Virus genome (UHGV): UHGV-0257029
DNA from: a virus
Direction: 5' to 3' (one strand)
Length of the DNA stretch: 14,896 bases
Numbering within the stretch: position 1 is the first letter of the stretch; each line of letters starts with the position of its first letter. Positions 1,106-6,478 of this stretch are shown in pieces. The notes under the pieces are model-generated. The model did no database searches. It saw only the letters and a list, made by a program, of their open reading frames with translations, and was not told the origin of the DNA. The translations under genes and the position numbers were made by a program.

Positions 1106-1392
1106 TGCCTTACCTCCATAAGCGCCCTATTAATAAACGCCGTCATTGGATTTGCACATCCCCACCCCGTACCATCTGGATTTCTTTTAATTGGCTCCTT
1201 CTTCACTTTGCGTTTTGCATAAATAACCGTCTTCCACTTACGCTCAACAACACTCAAATGTCCTTGTTTCACCATATGCCTTGCTGCTTGAGCGATTCTG
1301 TTATTTGGTATTCCGGTGATCAGTGCTAATTCATGTGGGGAGAATTGTTCATGAGTTTTCAGATATTCCAGGATGATTTCTTTTCCAGTCAC
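1102..1392 (-). CDS. Small basic protein, 96 aa, possible helix-turn-helix DNA-binding protein
   Basis: ORF immediately downstream of the DnaC-like gene with GTGA overlap (GTG start at 1392). The segment ELALITGIPNNRIAQAARHMVKQG has an HTH-like pattern. Confidence 0.4.
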   Translation of the reverse strand: MTGKEIILEYLKTHEQFSPHELALITGIPNNRIAQAARHMVKQGHLSVVERKWKTVIYAKRKVKKEPIKRNPDGTGWGCANPMTAFINRALMEVRQ

Positions 1393-2234
1393 GATCTGCT
1401 CCTGTAACTATCCCATGTAAACGCAAGAGTGCACCCGCCGCCATCATTCATCCTGTCAATAACACGCTCACCAATGAATGCAGACAGTTCATCTTTGCTC
1501 TGGTTGCTAATCAGGATTGTTGGCTTCATGCGCTCGTAGCGGGTGTTGATGATTTCGAACATGATCATCTTTTCCGCCTCGCTTCCAAACTGCACACCAA
1601 CCTCATCGATAATTAGCAGGTCAGGTTTAGTGAACTGTCGGATCACTTCATCCTCTGTGCGGGTGGAGTTTTTCGACCATGTTGATTTATATTCTCTGGC
1701 AATTTTCAGCGCCGTTGTGAAAATAGCTGAGCTTTGATGTTCCGTAATTGCGTGCCGGGCGATAGCCAGTGCAAGATGATTCTTTCCAGTACCAGGCTTT
1801 CCACACATAACCAGCCCACCGCCTTTCTGTAACCTCTCAGGCCATTTGCTGGCGTATGCCTGACACACCCTGAGCACTCTCTTTGCATCGTCGTTGACTG
1901 GCTCGTAGTTCTGTAGTGTGCAACCCTTGAATCGTTCAGGAATATCAAGATTATTCAACAGAAACTCGACATTGCGCTTACGTGATTCCTCGTCGATTTT
2001 AATCTTCTCTGCCTGTAGCCGAATAAGCTCATCTCTCATGCATTCCGGGCATTCGCTAGGTCTCGAGGCAAACTTAATTGGCCCAGTCGAGTAACGGTTA
2101 CGCTGCTCAAACTCACCATGTTTTTCACAGATGCCAGTGCCAATTTCTACAGATGTATGCTCGATAGCAATTGGCGGAGAACTCAATTCTGCAAGTTTTT
2201 TCTCCAGTTGGGAGATCTTTTCATCCAGCGTCAT
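1389..2234 (-). CDS. DnaC/IstB-like AAA+ helicase-loader replication protein
   Basis: Walker A GKPGTGKNHLA and Walker B LLIIDEVG. Start placed at the ATG at 2234 (MTLDEK...) with RBS aggag 5 nt upstream, just after the upstream stop; the ORF track begins 18 nt earlier at 2252. Confidence 0.75.
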   Translation of the reverse strand: MTLDEKISQLEKKLAELSSPPIAIEHTSVEIGTGICEKHGEFEQRNRYSTGPIKFASRPSECPECMRDELIRLQAEKIKIDEESRKRNVEFLLNNLDIPERFKGCTLQNYEPVNDDAKRVLRVCQAYASKWPERLQKGGGLVMCGKPGTGKNHLALAIARHAITEHQSSAIFTTALKIAREYKSTWSKNSTRTEDEVIRQFTKPDLLIIDEVGVQFGSEAEKMIMFEIINTRYERMKPTILISNQSKDELSAFIGERVIDRMNDGGGCTLAFTWDSYRSRS

Positions 2235-2236
2235 GT

Positions 2237-3124
2237 TCACTCCTGCGCCCATGAAGGCATTTCAGTTTGTCCGTAATCTTTGGTGGCAAAGTTTTCAGCC
2301 TTAAGTCCATTAGCAACCTTGCGTACCGGTCTGGATAACGCCTGCTTGTTCTGGTAGCTGAGTTTCTGGCTGGCAGTGATAAACCAGTTCTTTGGCTTCT
2401 CATGGCTAAATTCGATATCCAGCCTTTCCAGTTCGTAATTCAGGTCAATGTTCGGATACAGGCGCTTCCATGCTTCGTAGTCCTTGTGGTTTAACCGAAC
2501 GATATTTCCTTCGAAGGCATAGCGACTTGAAATTTTATGGACATCAGCCCCACCCCCTTCACAAGTCGCGTCAGCGGCTTGGGTGTTAGAAAGGGAATCA
2601 GGAATCAGGTTAAGGGAATCAGGAATCAGGTTAAGGGAATCAGCAGGATTTAAACTGTTCTCTACTGGTTCTTGCACTGTACTTGCATGGTGCTTTTCTG
2701 GTGCTTCATTGTTTTCAATGAACTGCAGTGATTCTACATCCTCCTTCTCTTCATCTTTATCGTCCTTGCACTGTACTTGCATGGTGCTGTTATTGTTCTC
2801 TACTGGTTCTGGTATCTCACTGGCAGCTTCTTTGCAGTGAGGGTTCTGGTGCTTTTTCCAGTTATTGATTTGGATATATGAGCCGCCATTTACCTGATAT
2901 CGGTTGATGAATTTGTGACTGTGAAGTTGCTGAAGCAGATCATTGCAGTCCACATCATCGAAAGGCAGTACCATTGCTTTAATTTTCTTTGGGCGATCAT
3001 CCAACCGCCCTTCTTTGTCAGCAATGGTCCATAACCCGGCAAAAAGGAGACGGGCATATGGAGAACACTCAGCTAATTCATCATTGGTGAAAAAGCCTGG
3101 TTTGATATTTCTTGAACGTGCCAT
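2237..3124 (-). CDS. Putative replication initiator / replisome organiser (not lambda O)
   Basis: Sits directly upstream of the DnaC-like gene in the lambda O position. Conserved-looking N-terminal domain (MARSRNIKPGFFTNDELAECSPYARLLFAGLWTIADKEGRL), acidic low-complexity linker encoded by DNA repeats, distinct C-terminal domain. ATG at 3124 with RBS aaggtgg. Confidence 0.5.
   Translation of the reverse strand: MARSRNIKPGFFTNDELAECSPYARLLFAGLWTIADKEGRLDDRPKKIKAMVLPFDDVDCNDLLQQLHSHKFINRYQVNGGSYIQINNWKKHQNPHCKEAASEIPEPVENNNSTMQVQCKDDKDEEKEDVESLQFIENNEAPEKHHASTVQEPVENSLNPADSLNLIPDSLNLIPDSLSNTQAADATCEGGGADVHKISSRYAFEGNIVRLNHKDYEAWKRLYPNIDLNYELERLDIEFSHEKPKNWFITASQKLSYQNKQALSRPVRKVANGLKAENFATKDYGQTEMPSWAQE
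2591..2644. repeat. 21-bp tandem repeat, about 2.5 copies (aagggaatcaggaatcaggtt), inside the initiator gene
   Basis: Read directly from the sequence; encodes the repeated peptide DSLNLIP on the minus strand. Confidence 0.85.
2656..2810. repeat. Two pairs of exact direct repeats (24 bp and 17 bp) flanking a moderately AT-rich spacer; iteron-like
   Basis: cttgcactgtacttgcatggtgct occurs at 2671..2694 and 2765..2788. tgttctctactggttct occurs at 2656..2672 and 2794..2810. Confidence 0.8.
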
Positions 3125-3135
3125 TTTGTCCACCT

Positions 3136-3936
3136 TTAGTACGGGAGTTCTTCCTGAGCTTCACGAATGCGTTCAGATACCCACTCCTTGAACGTTGTCC
3201 AGTTAGGTACTGTTTTCGCAAACTCAGTAAGTTCATCGAGATCTAAGTCGTATGAAAGCCATGCCTTGAGATAACTCATTACATGGTTTTGATTGATATA
3301 TATGCGGTTTTTAAGGATTCCTCTGATGTATAGAATCCTTTGTTCTTTTGGCGGTTTTCTTTTTGTCGCTGCTATGCGAGGGATGTACTCAAAGAATTCA
3401 CCAGTAAGCTCATGGGTTATTTCTTGGGTGAGTTTTTTGTCTGCGGCAATCTCAATCGCATCGAGGATTTCTTCAAGCTTATATATTCGAAGCCATCTCT
3501 TGATAGATTTTCGCCCATTGTCATTAACAGTAAATGGCGCAATGCAGTCGTCAATTTTGGTAGCGACAATATCAACAACATCGTCTTTCAGGCTCTTAAG
3601 ACCATCTCGCCACTTGATCATCATCTCCAGTTGCTCTCGCTTGGTATTAAGTTCCTGGAGTTGCTGCCTTTGCTTTTCCATTATTGAGTTATCGCTGAGC
3701 AGTTTGTCGCTTTTCCCGCCATTACAACTATCGCAAGAAGTAATAAGGTTCATCATGTCGTTATCGCCACCCTTGCTAACTGGGTTGATATGGTCGACAT
3801 GAAGGATGACGTCTGGCGCAGAACTCCCACAGTACTGGCATTTGAAGCCATCGCGCTTGAAAACCTCAAACCGTATTTTCTTGGTAATGCCGGAACGAAT
3901 CTTTTTTACTTGGTCTGGTGTAGGTTTTTTTGCCAT
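3136..3936 (-). CDS. HNH endonuclease domain protein
   Basis: HNH motif FKCQYCGSSAPDVILHVDHINPVSKGGDNDMMNLITSCDSCNGGK near the N-terminus. Start placed at the ATG at 3936 (RBS ggag 6 nt upstream) rather than the track start at 3948. Confidence 0.7.
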   Translation of the reverse strand: MAKKPTPDQVKKIRSGITKKIRFEVFKRDGFKCQYCGSSAPDVILHVDHINPVSKGGDNDMMNLITSCDSCNGGKSDKLLSDNSIMEKQRQQLQELNTKREQLEMMIKWRDGLKSLKDDVVDIVATKIDDCIAPFTVNDNGRKSIKRWLRIYKLEEILDAIEIAADKKLTQEITHELTGEFFEYIPRIAATKRKPPKEQRILYIRGILKNRIYINQNHVMSYLKAWLSYDLDLDELTEFAKTVPNWTTFKEWVSERIREAQEELPY

Positions 3937-3957
3937 AATTAACTCCATAGAAAGCAG

Positions 3958-4257
3958 TTAAAAATCCATCTGGATTTGTTCAGAACGCTCGGTCTTGCAC
4001 ACCGGGCGTTTTTTATTGGTGAGTCCATCAAGCGCATACTTAAAAGCCCTGCTAATCGGACTGATGTCTGATGCCATTCCGAAAGCACACAAGACCGAAG
4101 CAATAAACCGCCAGTCCGTTCTGCTTATCTTCGATTCATGACAGCCAATCATCTTTGCCAGACCGCGCTGGGTAAGCGTTGACAGGTTGATGAGTAAATC
4201 TGTTTCTGCGCGATCAATTTCTCGCTGTGTTGGCTTGCTATAACTTGCTTGTGTCAT
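3958..4257 (-). CDS. cII: CII-like transcriptional activator
   Basis: First gene after cro on the pR operon. C-terminal ...LTNKKRP..TERSEQIQMDF closely resembles the lambda CII C-terminus as recalled; N-terminal part diverges. Confidence 0.65.
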   Translation of the reverse strand: MTQASYSKPTQREIDRAETDLLINLSTLTQRGLAKMIGCHESKISRTDWRFIASVLCAFGMASDISPISRAFKYALDGLTNKKRPVCKTERSEQIQMDF

Positions 4258-4294
4258 TTGTTAATTTTCCAATAGTGAATAGTTAGTTGAAAGG

Positions 4295-4312
4295 TATGCG
4301 TGGAAACGCATA
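4295..4312 (-). terminator. Palindromic hairpin at the tR1 position between nutR and cII
   Basis: tatgcgt-ggaa-acgcata, 7-bp stem; no strong U-tract, so more likely an attenuator or rho-dependent pause than a strong intrinsic terminator. Confidence 0.3.
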
Positions 4313-4341
4313 TGGCCTTAGTTGGTCAGATATCTTGGGGC

Positions 4342-4356
4342 TCGCTTTGTCAGCGA
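4342..4356 (-). promoter_or_regulatory. Candidate nutR boxB hairpin
   Basis: Minus-strand tcgctgacaaagcga, preceded by ctacg, between cro and cII. Same core cgctgacaaagcg as the element upstream of N. Confidence 0.45.
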
Positions 4357-4394
4357 CGTAGGACGAATGTCCATTGTGAAAATAGCGGTGTTAC

Positions 4395-4595
4395 TTATGC
4401 AGTTGTTTTTTTGTTACTTGGGAAGGGCTTTATTTCTTCCGCATAAACGCTTCCATCAGCGTTTATAGTTAAAAAAATCTTTCGGCCTGCATGAATGGCC
4501 TTGTTAATCGCGCTTTGATATACGCCGAGATCTTTAGCCGTCTTGGTTTGCCCAAAGCGTATTGCATAATCTTTCAGGGTTATGCGTTGTTCCAT
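4395..4595 (-). CDS. cro: Cro repressor
   Basis: 66-aa translation [65 protein letters not shown] matches lambda Cro as recalled. RBS aggag upstream; transcribed from pR. Confidence 0.95.
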
Positions 4596-4614
4596 ACAAC
4601 CTCCTTAGTACAGG

Positions 4615-4690
4615 TAATCATTATCACCGCTAGAGGTATAATAGTCAACACGCACGGTGTTAGATATTTATCCCTTGCGGTGATAGATTT
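4615..4690. promoter_or_regulatory. OR1-OR2-OR3 operators with divergent pR (toward cro) and pRM (toward cI)
   Basis: OR1 4622..4638 tatcaccgctagaggta, OR2 4646..4662 caacacgcacggtgtta, OR3 4669..4685 tatcccttgcggtgata. pR on the minus strand: -35 ttgact (plus 4643..4648), -10 gataat (plus 4620..4625), 17-bp spacer. pRM on the plus strand: -35 tagata 4661..4666, -10 tagatt 4684..4689; cI ATG at 4696 is leaderless. Confidence 0.9.
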
Positions 4691-4692
4691 AA

Positions 4693-5409
<717 letters not shown>

Positions 5410-5479: not shown

Positions 5480-6478
5480 TTGGAAATCAGCACGGCGGTT
5501 ATTCATTCCGAAGAAGATGCTTTGCGTTTTGTTGAGATGTACATCGCTGGGCAAGATCTTCCTGATGGAATATCATTTGAAGGGTGGCCTAACTTAACCT
5601 TCCGTCTTACTGGTGACAAATTTCATGGCAGTTTGACTCCTTCTGTCATGAAGGGTTTTGTTGAAATGCAGGCCCAAATAAACCGAGCTTATGCATTGTT
5701 AAAGTACGGAGTTCCTGACCCAAGAAAGCTTTCAAAAGAAGAGAAGGAAGCTATCGAAATTCAGGTGAATGTTGAGAATGGCTCGTCCTTGATAGAAGTT
5801 AATATGGATGGGTTCATGGGTGAGGTTATACAAACTGCGGTGAGTAAAGTGGGCCCTCAAGAGATCGTTATTACAGTTTTAGGGGTCGCTCTTATATGGG
5901 GCGGCGTCGTCCTATTCAAAAAATATCTAGAAGACCGCAAAGAGATTCGCATGGCAGAAGTAAAAAGCGAGTCTGAGCGTGAACACCTTGCGACCATGCG
6001 CTTCATGTCTGAGCAGGAAACAAAACGAAGTGAATTATTGACTCAGATTATTAGCGAAAAACCCAAGCTAGACAACATGGAAAGACTTGCTCATGACGCA
6101 AAAACCGACATAGTTAAATCATTTGTCAAGGCTGATACAGCTCAGATTGATGGCGTTGTATTGGATGCAGATCTATCCAAAACCCTCACTACAAATGCAA
6201 GGCGGAAATCAATGGAGATCCGCCTTGATGGAAATTATCGCATTGAAAAGGTTGACTCCACTGATCCAGAGAGCTTCAAAGTGCAAGTGAGAAATGTTGA
6301 CTCCGATCTAAGAATATCGTGCATAGTACAAGATGTATTTCTCGACGCATCCGAGCATAAAAAAGCTCTTCAGCAAGCTGAGTGGGATAGAAAACCAGTT
6401 CATTTGTCAATCAACGCAAAAGAACTAGATGGTGAAATAAAGTCCGCGATAATACTTTATGTCAAAGAGATAACATAA
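5480..6478 (+). CDS. Unknown 332-aa protein with one central predicted transmembrane helix, in the rexA/rexB position
   Basis: ORF on the cI strand between cI and OL. TTG start at 5480 with RBS agagg 8 nt upstream (alternative ATG at 5537). Hydrophobic segment IVITVLGVALIWGGVVLF near residues 131-148. No resemblance to RexA or RexB as recalled, and no kinase or nuclease motifs seen. Confidence 0.6.
   Translation: MEISTAVIHSEEDALRFVEMYIAGQDLPDGISFEGWPNLTFRLTGDKFHGSLTPSVMKGFVEMQAQINRAYALLKYGVPDPRKLSKEEKEAIEIQVNVENGSSLIEVNMDGFMGEVIQTAVSKVGPQEIVITVLGVALIWGGVVLFKKYLEDRKEIRMAEVKSESEREHLATMRFMSEQETKRSELLTQIISEKPKLDNMERLAHDAKTDIVKSFVKADTAQIDGVVLDADLSKTLTTNARRKSMEIRLDGNYRIEKVDSTDPESFKVQVRNVDSDLRISCIVQDVFLDASEHKKALQQAEWDRKPVHLSINAKELDGEIKSAIILYVKEIT

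What the first reader, a model, noticed from the sequence alone, without database searches (positions are those of the whole stretch)
2584..2812. Iteron-like repeat cluster inside the replication initiator gene: candidate origin
Inside the putative initiator gene (2237..3124, minus strand) are a 21-bp tandem repeat in about 2.5 copies (2591..2644, containing five ggaatcag motifs) and two pairs of exact direct repeats (24 bp at 2671..2694 and 2765..2788; 17 bp at 2656..2672 and 2794..2810) in permuted order around a moderately AT-rich spacer. Lambda places ori iterons inside the O gene, so this may be the origin of this non-lambda replication module. The repeats also encode a low-complexity acidic linker, so protein-level repeat expansion is the alternative.
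Basis: seen in the sequence. Interest (0 to 1): 0.5.

Follow-up and report, generated by a model that had tools for sequence, protein, structure and literature searches.

The report
Replication origin inside phage initiator gene
The repeats inside this prophage's replication-initiator gene are real DNA-level signals, almost certainly the phage's replication origin, and their 7-base core is kept letter for letter in related phage genes from at least six bacterial phyla.

Summary

The repeats resolve into smaller units:
- five 7-bp units, GGAATCA on the + strand (CTGATTC in gene sense), at 2591-2643;
- two arrays of 11-bp units at about 2644-2709 and 2756-2810.

The protein-repeat alternative is refuted:
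- the 24-mer is read in two reading frames;
- unit lengths are not multiples of three;
- synonymous variation collapses from about 0.5 to about 0.01 over the block in 68 relatives;
- in 83 genes from genomes of 36-67% G+C, 'IPDS' is almost always ATT-CCT-GAT-TCN;
- a 60-nt stretch is 100% identical in Vibrio phages whose flanking gene DNA gives no match.

The element always follows one winged-helix N-terminal domain. That domain has no Pfam model and about 22,000 cluster representatives, and it is joined to swappable C-terminal domains. Distant subfamilies carry different repeats at the same position.

Best reading: an origin embedded in its initiator gene, working like lambda ori/O or RepA_N replicons but not a member of either family. 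Binding and origin activity are untested, and there is no clear AT-rich unwinding tract. Verdict: new variant of a known kind, moderately high interest.

The parts
2237..3124 (-). Replication initiator gene (295 aa). It encodes an N-terminal winged-helix domain (aa 1-110, 2795-3124), a disordered linker (aa 111-208, 2501-2794) and a helical C-terminal domain (aa 209-295, 2240-2500).
   Evidence: Matches phrog_17247 over the full length (E 1e-190). The N-terminal part matches several 'replication initiation protein' PHROGs. AlphaFold2 with 150 sequences gives pLDDT above 90 for aa 1-110 and below 52 for aa 111-208. There is no Pfam or NCBIfam hit.
2591..2643 (.). Heptamer array: five GGAATCA units on the + strand (CTGATTC in gene sense), arranged as a 21-bp super-repeat of 2.5 copies (two heptamers plus the degenerate third unit GGTTAAG). 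It translates as (S)LNLIPDS.
   Evidence: Codons are frozen in 68 relatives: diversity 0.01 against 0.50 in the N-domain. The stretch is 100% identical in Vibrio phages. ATT-CCT-GAT-TCN is fixed across phyla. Copy number ranges from 1.5 to 6.5 units in Salmonella relatives.
2644..2709 (.). Proximal array of about six tandem 11-bp units (gene-sense core AGnACnR plus 4 nt).
   Evidence: Lag-11 autocorrelation is 0.54, and 0 of 5000 shuffles reach it. Per-nucleotide conservation is close to 100%, third codon positions included. In 'STVQ' instances across phyla, AGY is used 35/35 times and CAA 35/35 times.
2710..2755 (.). Variable spacer encoding the acidic low-complexity stretch. It is 60-62% A+T.
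   Evidence: Both amino acids and nucleotides vary among relatives. Duplex stability is only z about +1.
2756..2810 (.). Distal array of five tandem 11-bp units: AGAACCAGTAG, AGAACAATAAC, AGCACCATGCA, AGTACAGTGCA, AGGACGATAAA. It contains the 24-mer copy 2765-2788 and the 17-mer copy 2794-2810.
   Evidence: Lag-11 autocorrelation is 0.55, and 0 of 5000 shuffles reach it. It is read in a different frame from the proximal copy. Conservation among relatives is only moderate. In this lineage 3-4 nt differ from the clade majority (STGQEQCK), which makes the copy identical to the proximal one.
2561..2590 (.). G+C-rich conserved box next to the heptamers. It encodes NTQAADATC and is specific to the enterobacterial clade.
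   Evidence: Codon diversity is 0 at four of seven conserved columns in 68 genes. Per-nucleotide conservation is shown. It overlaps the most stable duplex in the neighbourhood (2540-2589, z = -2.8).
1389..2252 (-). DnaC-like helicase loader gene. It overlaps the 3' end of the initiator gene by 16 nt and is the presumed partner of the initiator's C-terminal domain.
   Evidence: Pfam IstB_IS21 (E 1.8e-18) and Bac_DnaA. phrog_50 'DnaC-like helicase loader' (E 1.7e-86). NCBIfam DnaC model E 2.8e-45, below its curated cut-off.
4620..4648 (-). pR-like promoter upstream of cro. Transcription from it would run through cro, cII, the HNH gene and the initiator gene, and so across the element.
   Evidence: It is the only sigma-70-like match in 1300-4800, scoring 10 of 12. 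Its role in activating the origin is inferred by analogy with lambda.

Best explanation
Window 2561-2810 is a cis-acting DNA element, most likely the replication origin of this lambdoid prophage. It sits in the part of the initiator gene that encodes the disordered linker.

Shown:
- The region is built from short DNA repeats: five 7-bp units and two arrays of 11-bp units, one helical turn apart.
- The nucleotide sequence, not the encoded peptide, is under purifying selection.
- The repeats always accompany one N-terminal domain, whatever the C-terminal domain.
- The N-domain is predicted to be a winged helix.

Inferred:
- The winged-helix N-domain of the initiator binds these repeats in its own gene and oligomerises on them.
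- The C-terminal domain recruits the DnaC-like loader encoded immediately downstream, and through it the host DnaB helicase.
- Rightward (pR) transcription crosses the site, as at lambda ori.

The heptamers are the universal core and my preferred initiator-binding sites. The 11-mers are accessory or specificity sites, and the opposite assignment is possible. The peptides LNLIPDS and HHASTVQ are by-products of translating these DNA repeats.
For: 1. Frame independence.
- The 24-mer is read as STMQVQCK and as KHHASTVQE.
- CCTGATTCC occurs in two frames and ACAGTGCAA in all three frames, across 102 linkers.
- Repeat periods of 7, 11, 14, 15 and 22 nt are confined to the linker in 117 non-redundant genes: lag 11 in 64 genes, against at most 2 in the N- and C-domain regions.

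2. Synonymous constraint.
- Codon diversity is 0.50 in the N-domain (71 columns) and 0.39 in the C-domain (33 columns).
- It is 0.01 at aa 158-170 and about 0.1 at aa 134-157 and 180-188.

3. Conservation across phyla (Gamma-, Beta- and Deltaproteobacteria, Bacillota, Verrucomicrobia, Omnitrophota, Saccharibacteria; 36-67% G+C).
- In 101 'IPDS' instances: ATT 99, CCT 96, GAT 101, TCN 100, against backgrounds of 33%, 25%, 52% and 65%.
- In 63 of 67 genes the first instance is ATTCCTGATTCN, binomial tail 8e-93.

4. Identity beyond the gene.
- A 60-nt block is 100% identical in Vibrio phages, 98% over 49 nt in Acinetobacter phage and 100% over 38 nt in Pseudomonas phages.
- The N-domain is only 46-55% identical in protein, and megablast matched only the repeat block.

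5. Copy number varies in steps of 7 aa, giving protein lengths of 288 to 323 aa.

6. Linkage to the N-domain.
- The N-domain plus repeats is combined with DnaB_2, DnaT, Phg_2220_C and other C-domains.
- All 120 viral contigs carrying the exact 27-mer have it inside an ORF of this family: 110 with a full N-domain signature upstream, the other 10 cut by a locus end or with variant signatures.

7. Covariation.
- The subfamily with MARIRTIKP...HQ[RVK]IN N-domains has other repeats at the same place.
- Examples: GGAACAG x6 in Streptomyces phages, GGATCAG x3.4 in Tyrion, and distinct 10-11-mers plus GGAAG runs in Claudette, Kp4865-4, Vibrio 1.176, phiE131 and Pitbull.

8. Fold.
- The N-domain is a winged helix.

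9. Context: cI-cro-cII-(HNH)-initiator-DnaC-like-ren-like-ninB.
Against: - No experiment shows binding or origin firing.
- No marked AT-rich unwinding tract adjoins the repeats (z at most +1.2).
- No DnaA box lies in the element; the nearest is a one-mismatch site at 2330.
- Which repeat class binds the initiator is unresolved. HNH-inserted relatives keep the heptamers but have no exact GTGCAAG core, and no STVQ-type 11-mers were seen in Vibrio, Acinetobacter and psageB2. In the distant subfamilies it is the 10-11-mers that look initiator-specific.
- Strict cis linkage and frozen sequence would also fit an autoregulatory operator.
- The heptamer's orientation relative to the gene is inverted between subfamilies: GGAATCA is on the non-coding strand here, while GGATCAG and GGAACAG are on the coding strand elsewhere.
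- Invariance of an iteron across phyla is unusual for initiator-iteron pairs, which normally diverge.
Confidence: 0.7

Rival explanations
1. The repeats are binding sites for the initiator, or another regulator, that serve autoregulation, copy control or a transcriptional roadblock. They are not the site of initiation, and the origin lies elsewhere.
For: DNA-level selection and strict cis linkage to the N-domain fit any cognate binding site. No AT-rich unwinding tract or DnaA box lies next to the repeats.
Against: No other repeat cluster of comparable significance was found in the window. The position, in the linker of the initiator gene with the helicase-loader gene immediately downstream, matches the lambda ori arrangement (PMC7466680). 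Copy-number variation of 1.5-6.5 units is tolerated, as with the 4 versus 6 iterons of lambda and Stx phages (PMC7466680).
Confidence: 0.12
2. The conserved block is a recombination junction, or a homing-endonuclease target, that promotes shuffling of N- and C-terminal modules. It has no role in replication.
For: The block lies exactly where C-terminal domains are swapped. Nuclease genes (HNH, GIY-YIG) sit next to the initiator gene or are inserted in it in many relatives.
Against: Recombination junctions are not expected to hold every synonymous site fixed across phyla. They do not explain the tandem 7- and 11-nt unit structure, or the subfamily-specific repeats at the same position. A homing target exploits conservation rather than causing it.
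Confidence: 0.07
3. Selection acts on RNA: a structured or protein-binding segment of the mRNA or of an antisense transcript, for example GGA-rich sites for a CsrA-type protein.
For: The repeats are GGA-rich on one strand. The 24-mers can form weak hairpins followed by T-runs on the + strand.
Against: There is no Rfam match at E up to 1. Folding z-scores are -0.96 (sense) and -1.58 (antisense). The GGA-rich strand is antisense here but sense in other subfamilies, which argues for duplex recognition. The hosts span several phyla, including phages of Actinobacteria. The conservation is absolute sequence identity rather than compensatory change.
Confidence: 0.05
4. Protein-level repeat expansion: the repeats exist because a low-complexity, flexible acidic linker or a short peptide motif (LIPDS) is selected.
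For: The region encodes a predicted disordered linker. The peptides LNLIPDS and HHTSTVQ recur in the family.
Against: The 24-mer is read in two frames. Units are 7 and 11 nt long. Codons are fixed against the background usage of the same genes in genomes of 36-67% G+C. The truly acidic stretch is the one part that is not conserved.
Confidence: 0.03
5. An overlapping gene on the opposite strand (ORF 2583..2840 +, 85 aa) constrains the synonymous sites.
For: The ORF exists in the window.
Against: In relatives the equivalent frame is open for anything from 4 to 121 codons and is interrupted right at the repeats in several of them.
Confidence: 0.01

Closest known systems
Lambda ori inside gene O (lambdoid and Stx phages)
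   Same: The origin lies in the middle of the initiator gene, and the initiator binds direct repeats there. The helicase-loader gene follows immediately, and the operon is driven by pR. Iteron number varies between relatives, 4 versus 6 (PMC7466680). The immunity region here is lambda-like, with cI, Cro and CII Pfam hits.
   Different: The initiator has no Pfam match of any kind, and so none to a lambda O family model. The partner is DnaC-like, not lambda P. Units are 7 and 11 bp rather than 19-bp palindromic iterons. There is no clear AT-rich tract. The core sequence is invariant across phyla, whereas lambdoid iterons differ between phages (own knowledge).
RepA_N plasmid and satellite initiators (pSK41, pTZ2162, PLE RepA)
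   Different: No sequence or Pfam relationship was found, and the fold similarity is at the generic winged-helix level. [quoted passage not shown]
SPP1 G38P replisome organizer and oriL
   Same: The phage initiator binds repeats within its own gene and hands over to a loader and helicase (own knowledge; SPP1 oriL replication is described in PMC5737612). The Hafnia phage yong1 homologue carries the depositor's note 'Phage_rep_org_N'.
   Different: The window protein matches no Pfam family, even with the cut-off raised to E = 10.
Plasmid P1 oriR (five 7-bp repeats with GATC next to 19-bp iterons)
   Same: A bipartite origin with a heptamer array beside longer initiator sites. The heptamers carry a methylatable site (own knowledge): GANTC here, and GATC in the phage Tyrion homologue.
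   Different: The P1 elements are intergenic and need DnaA boxes and Dam. None of this is shown here, so the resemblance is only a lead.

Membership tests
Lambda-type origin (ori within gene O) | Initiator homologous to lambda O | tested here: not met
   The full protein has no Pfam family at E up to 0.01. Neither the N-terminal nor the C-terminal domain has one at E up to 10. There is no NCBIfam hit either.
Lambda-type origin (ori within gene O) | Several direct repeats in the middle of the initiator gene | tested here: met
   Five heptamers and about eleven 11-mers lie in the linker-coding part of the gene.
Lambda-type origin (ori within gene O) | AT-rich unwinding tract flanking the iterons | tested here: not met
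   The spacer is 60-62% A+T and its 40-mer stability z is at most +1.2. The other flank is G+C-rich, z = -2.8.
Lambda-type origin (ori within gene O) | Helicase-loader gene immediately downstream in the same operon | tested here: met
   A DnaC-like AAA+ gene at 1389-2252 overlaps the initiator stop. It is a different family from lambda P.
Lambda-type origin (ori within gene O) | Initiator binds the repeats and replication starts there | not testable with these tools
   This needs EMSA or footprinting, ori cloning, or marker-frequency mapping.
RepA_N replicons | RepA_N domain (Pfam PF06970) at the N-terminus | tested here: not met
   No Pfam hit. A PDB sequence-profile search returned only spurious hits.
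RepA_N replicons | Winged-helix NTD of the DnaD/RepA_N type | tested here: inconclusive
RepA_N replicons | Conserved NTD joined to variable, host-specific CTD | tested here: met
   The 150 representatives share the NTD. Their CTDs include DnaB_2 (9), DnaT (5), Phg_2220_C (3) and others.
SPP1 G38P-type replisome organizer (Phage_rep_org_N) | Match to the Phage_rep_org_N model | tested here: not met
   No Pfam match at E up to 10. Only a depositor's note on the yong1 homologue mentions this family.
PHROG 'replication initiation protein' families (phrog_16167, 12556, 1408, 2149) | Significant profile match | tested here: met
   The N-terminal part matches with E 2e-50 to 4e-22 (aa 1-106 up to 1-170). 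The full length matches phrog_17247, annotated as unknown function, at E 1e-190.
Iterons (general definition) | Directly repeated units phased with the DNA helix and specific to their initiator | tested here: met
   Periods of 11 bp and 21 bp. Different N-domain subfamilies carry different repeats at the same position.
Iterons (general definition) | Bound by the cognate initiator | not testable with these tools

The most novel reading that the evidence does not exclude
The CTGATTC heptamer array is a sequence-invariant origin core shared by thousands of temperate phages from at least six bacterial phyla. It is read by a very large winged-helix initiator domain family that no curated database models. 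Such invariance is unlike ordinary initiator-iteron pairs. It would mean one of two things: an unusually rigid protein-DNA code carried by the invariant N-terminal arm (MARxRNIKP) and the HQNPH motif, or recognition of the heptamers, perhaps as single strands, by universally conserved host replication machinery. The in-frame HNH and GIY-YIG insertions in the same protein family would then be origin-directed nucleases used in conflicts between phages that share this origin.
Probability: 0.3. Interest if true: 0.75.

Novelty: new variant of a known kind. Interest (0 to 1): 0.6.

Why it matters
An origin embedded in the initiator gene is a classical arrangement, so the kind is known. What appears not to have been described:
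- This initiator family has about 22,000 cluster representatives at 50% identity and no Pfam, NCBIfam or PDB relative.
- It has a bipartite 11-mer plus 7-mer architecture.
- The heptamer core is kept nucleotide for nucleotide from Bacillota to Proteobacteria.

If confirmed, it would bring several benefits:
- A one-line sequence signature for annotating origins in thousands of prophages.
- An explanation for the puzzling 'LIPDSLNLIPDS' and 'HHTSTVQ' low-complexity peptides, as translated DNA signals.
- A compact system for asking how one DNA-binding domain keeps an invariant target while its effector domain is swapped.
- A possible rationale for the nuclease genes that cluster at this locus.

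Tried and rejected
- A single-sequence AlphaFold2 model was useless (mean pLDDT 37). It was replaced by the model built from the 150-sequence alignment.
- The antisense ORF 2583-2840 was rejected because it is not conserved.
- Rfam gave nothing at E up to 1, and RNA folding of both strands was not significant.
- Pfam at E up to 10 on the separate domains gave nothing. A PDB sequence-profile search gave only a spurious match to a designed protein.
- I looked for a natural mini-replicon among plasmid records. The 6.2-kb record is a linear assembly fragment, and the 29.7-kb and 39.4-kb circles are phage-sized episomes, so none isolates the origin.
- I looked for orphan copies of the element without the initiator, which would suggest satellites. 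There were none among 120 viral contigs.
- The reported 'three places' of the motif in the Vibrio phage record correspond to the three adjacent copies within the one array; the motif occurs nowhere else in that genome.
- DnaA boxes and an AT-rich unwinding tract near the repeats were not found.
- Literature searches for the repeat strings and peptides found nothing relevant. Searches on HK639, replisome organizers and iterons found no study of this family. The review by Weaver et al. 2009 was not available.

Full report
**Observation.**
- Tandem Repeats Finder gives 2591-2643, period 21, 2.5 copies, 100% match. It also reports the same stretch as period 7, 5.3 copies.
- All five exact GGAATCAG motifs in the window lie in 2594-2643.
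- The 24-bp pair (2671-2694 and 2765-2788) and the 17-bp pair (2656-2672 and 2794-2810) are exact. They are far beyond chance: 0.03 matches expected for the 17-mer within the 24-bp repeat, even allowing 3 mismatches.
- The gene is 2237..3124 on the minus strand and encodes 295 aa.

**Context.** The window is a lambdoid prophage. It carries integrase, Sak4-like annealase, SSB, an N-like protein, cI (4696-5409 +), cro, cII, an HNH endonuclease gene (3136-3948), the initiator, a DnaC-like loader (1389-2252), a Ren/MarR-like gene and NinB. The initiator gene is 98.4-98.8% identical to those of Escherichia phages Louie and Dewey and an Stx1a phage, and up to 99% identical to E. coli prophages. It is 74-78% identical to HK639, Hafnia phage yong1 and a prophage in E. 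coli OW1E2.

**The repeats are DNA repeats, not protein repeats.**
- The two 24-mer copies are translated in different frames, STMQVQCK and KHHASTVQE.
- The 21-bp unit is two heptamers plus a degenerate third unit. A pure heptamer run (TGATTCC in gene sense) would place a TGA stop in every frame, so every third unit has to differ (read directly from the sequence).
- LIPDS is the translation of (CTGATTC)(CTGATTC)C.
- The 24-mer and 17-mer belong to two arrays of tandem 11-mers, at 2756-2810 and about 2644-2709. Lag-11 autocorrelation is 0.55 and 0.54, against about 0.25 elsewhere, and 0 of 5000 shuffles reach it.
- The 'permuted order' simply reflects the same 11-mer variants (AGCACCATGCA, AGTACAGTGCA, AGAACCAGTAG, AGAACAnTnn) occurring in a different sequence in the two arrays.

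**Selection on the nucleotides.**
- In 68 unique genes of the enterobacterial clade, codon diversity at conserved amino-acid columns is 0.50 in the N-domain and 0.39 in the C-domain.
- It falls to 0.01 at aa 158-170 (LNPADSLNLIPDS) and to about 0.1 at aa 134-157 and 180-188.
- Per nucleotide, a block of about 150 bp (window ~2565-2712) is close to 100% conserved, third positions included. The acidic spacer and the distal array vary.
- In 83 unique genes recovered through the N-domain alone, the peptide IPDS (101 instances) uses ATT 99 times, CCT 96, GAT 101 and TCN 100. These genes come from Gamma-, Beta- and Deltaproteobacteria, Bacillota, Verrucomicrobia, Omnitrophota and Saccharibacteria, with loci of 36-67% G+C. 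Background use in the same genes is 33%, 25%, 52% and 65%.
- Counting each gene once, 63 of 67 start with ATTCCTGATTCN (tail 8e-93).
- The STVQ element uses AGY 35 of 35 times and CAA 35 of 35 times, while the third position of Thr is free. This points to a GTGCAAG core.
- Megablast finds the heptamer block 100% identical over 60 nt in Vibrio phages and nearly so in Acinetobacter and Pseudomonas phages. Their N-domains are only 46-55% identical in protein, and megablast matched only the repeat block there.
- Copy number varies from 1.5 to 6.5 units in Salmonella relatives, giving proteins of 288, 295, 302, 309, 316 and 323 aa.

**What the element travels with.**
- The N-terminal 103 aa define a very large family: 22,142 cluster representatives at E up to 1e-3 and 1,291 at E up to 1e-30.
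- The family has no Pfam, NCBIfam or PDB sequence relative.
- In the 150 best representatives the N-domain is followed by the same linker motifs and then by many different C-terminal domains. Pfam identified DnaB_2/DnaD-like in 9, DnaT in 5 and Phg_2220_C in 3.
- 93 of 94 unique genes have a tandem repeat, nearly always in the linker. In the HQNPH subfamily it is nearly always CTGATTC-based with period 7, 14, 15, 21 or 22, often together with 11- or 22-nt repeats.
- Across 117 non-redundant genes these periodicities are confined to the linker.
- All 120 viral contigs holding the exact 27-mer have it inside an ORF of this family: 110 with a full N-domain signature upstream, 10 cut by a locus end or with variant signatures.
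- The motif occurs nowhere else in the window or in a complete Vibrio phage genome.

**Covariation.** More distant relatives (N-domain 34-45% identical, MARIRTIKP...HQ[RVK]IN) carry different repeats at the same position:
- GGAACAG x6 in two Streptomyces phages;
- GGATCAG x3.4 in Enterobacter phage Tyrion;
- in Ralstonia Claudette, Klebsiella Kp4865-4, Vibrio 1.176.O, Burkholderia phiE131 and Arthrobacter Pitbull, a subfamily-specific 9- to 11-mer array followed by GGAAG-type short repeats, or an 18-mer in Claudette.

A bipartite layout is therefore recurrent in this wider sample, with longer initiator-specific repeats next to short purine-rich repeats. The repeat sequence changes with the N-domain.

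**Mechanism.**
- Shown: a composite array of DNA repeats under nucleotide-level selection, in cis with a predicted DNA-binding domain of a protein annotated as a replication initiator, and followed by a helicase-loader gene.
- Inferred: the N-domain binds the repeats and assembles a nucleoprotein complex. The C-domain brings in the DnaC-like loader and host DnaB. pR transcription crosses the site, as at lambda ori, which lies in the middle of gene O with iterons and an AT-rich tract (PMC7466680).
- In RepA_N initiators the NTD likewise binds iterons and the CTD is host-specific (PMC7145576).
- I favour the heptamers as the universal initiator sites. They persist where no STVQ-type 11-mers are seen: in the HNH-inserted variants and in the Vibrio, Acinetobacter and psageB2 genes. 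The opposite assignment, with 11-mers as iterons and heptamers as an opening or loading element as in the P1 oriR heptamers (own knowledge), cannot be excluded.

**Weak points.**
- There is no marked AT-rich tract and no DnaA box in the element.
- There are no experimental data.
- An autoregulatory operator would leave the same comparative signature.
- Other rivals fit poorly. RNA-level explanations are not supported. The antisense ORF is not conserved. A recombination junction would not explain the unit structure or the covariation.

**Comparison and novelty.** The element works like lambda ori/O, SPP1 oriL/G38P and RepA_N replicons, but it meets none of their sequence-family criteria. Searches of the held literature for the repeat strings, the peptides and related terms found no description of this family's origin. 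I rate it a new variant of a known kind. The unusual points are the size of the uncatalogued family, the bipartite 11-mer plus 7-mer design, and an iteron core that is invariant across phyla.

Noticed in passing
window 3136-3948 (-); loci L006, L007, L004, L005: An HNH endonuclease gene sits 11 nt upstream of the initiator gene. The same slot between cII and the initiator holds HNH in phage Louie, a GIY-YIG nuclease in E. coli OW1E2, and unrelated genes in HK639 and yong1. It looks like a hotspot for mobile nuclease genes next to the conserved block.
   Followed up: partly
L078, L080, L136, L143 (initiator genes); P0124, P0150, P0169, P0182, P0192, P0227, P0229, P0251; L169 (Mx8 p19): In several relatives an HNH domain is inserted in frame in the initiator linker. 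In L078, L136 and L143, which were examined in detail, the heptamers are kept and no GTGCAAG core remains. Mx8 p19 carries an insert resembling GIY-YIG/T5orf172 (my own reading of the sequence). This recalls ICP1 Odn, which fuses a RepA_N DNA-binding domain to a nuclease and cuts the PLE origin (PMC8263062).
   Followed up: partly
window 3960-4016 (+): A terminator-like hairpin with a T-run (3982-4012) lies antisense to the 3' end of cII. The sequence ccatctggatttgttcagaacgctcggtcttgcacaccgggcgttttttatt closely resembles the 3' part of lambda oop RNA as I recall it. Rfam gave no hit.
   Followed up: no
NZ_CP081778.1, NZ_CP081786.1 (39.4 kb), NZ_CP081694.1 (29.7 kb, L174), NZ_CP081787.1 (6.2 kb linear, L173): E. 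coli strains 0H24, 0H25 and 0H26 carry this phage as separate records filed as plasmids: two of 39.4 kb (NZ_CP081778.1 from 0H24; strain not retrieved for NZ_CP081786.1), a circular one of 29.7 kb (0H25) and a 6.2-kb linear fragment (0H26). The 29.7-kb record lists no terminase, portal or coat genes. Strains 0H15, 0H23, 0H25 and 0H26 also have the initiator gene in the chromosome. This suggests episomal or induced phage DNA in the sequenced cultures.
   Followed up: partly
window 2765-2788 compared with relatives (P0001-P0120, L010-L064): The distal 24-mer copy encodes STMQVQCK here and in Louie, but STGQEQCK in most of the clade. Three or four nucleotide changes make it identical to the proximal copy, which suggests gene conversion between the two 11-mer arrays in this lineage.
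   Followed up: partly
L178 (Enterobacter phage Tyrion) cds 381-404; window 2591-2643: The short repeats carry methylation-type sites: GANTC in CTGATTC here, and GATC in Tyrion's GGATCAG. Louie and Vibrio phage 24E30.2 encode DNA methyltransferases nearby. A link between methylation and origin control was not examined.
   Followed up: no
window 5480-6478 (+): A 332-aa ORF lies directly downstream of cI. It matches only phrog_6191, of unknown function (E 1e-138), plus a sub-threshold Pfam aRib hit. Its position suggests a gene expressed in the lysogen.
   Followed up: no
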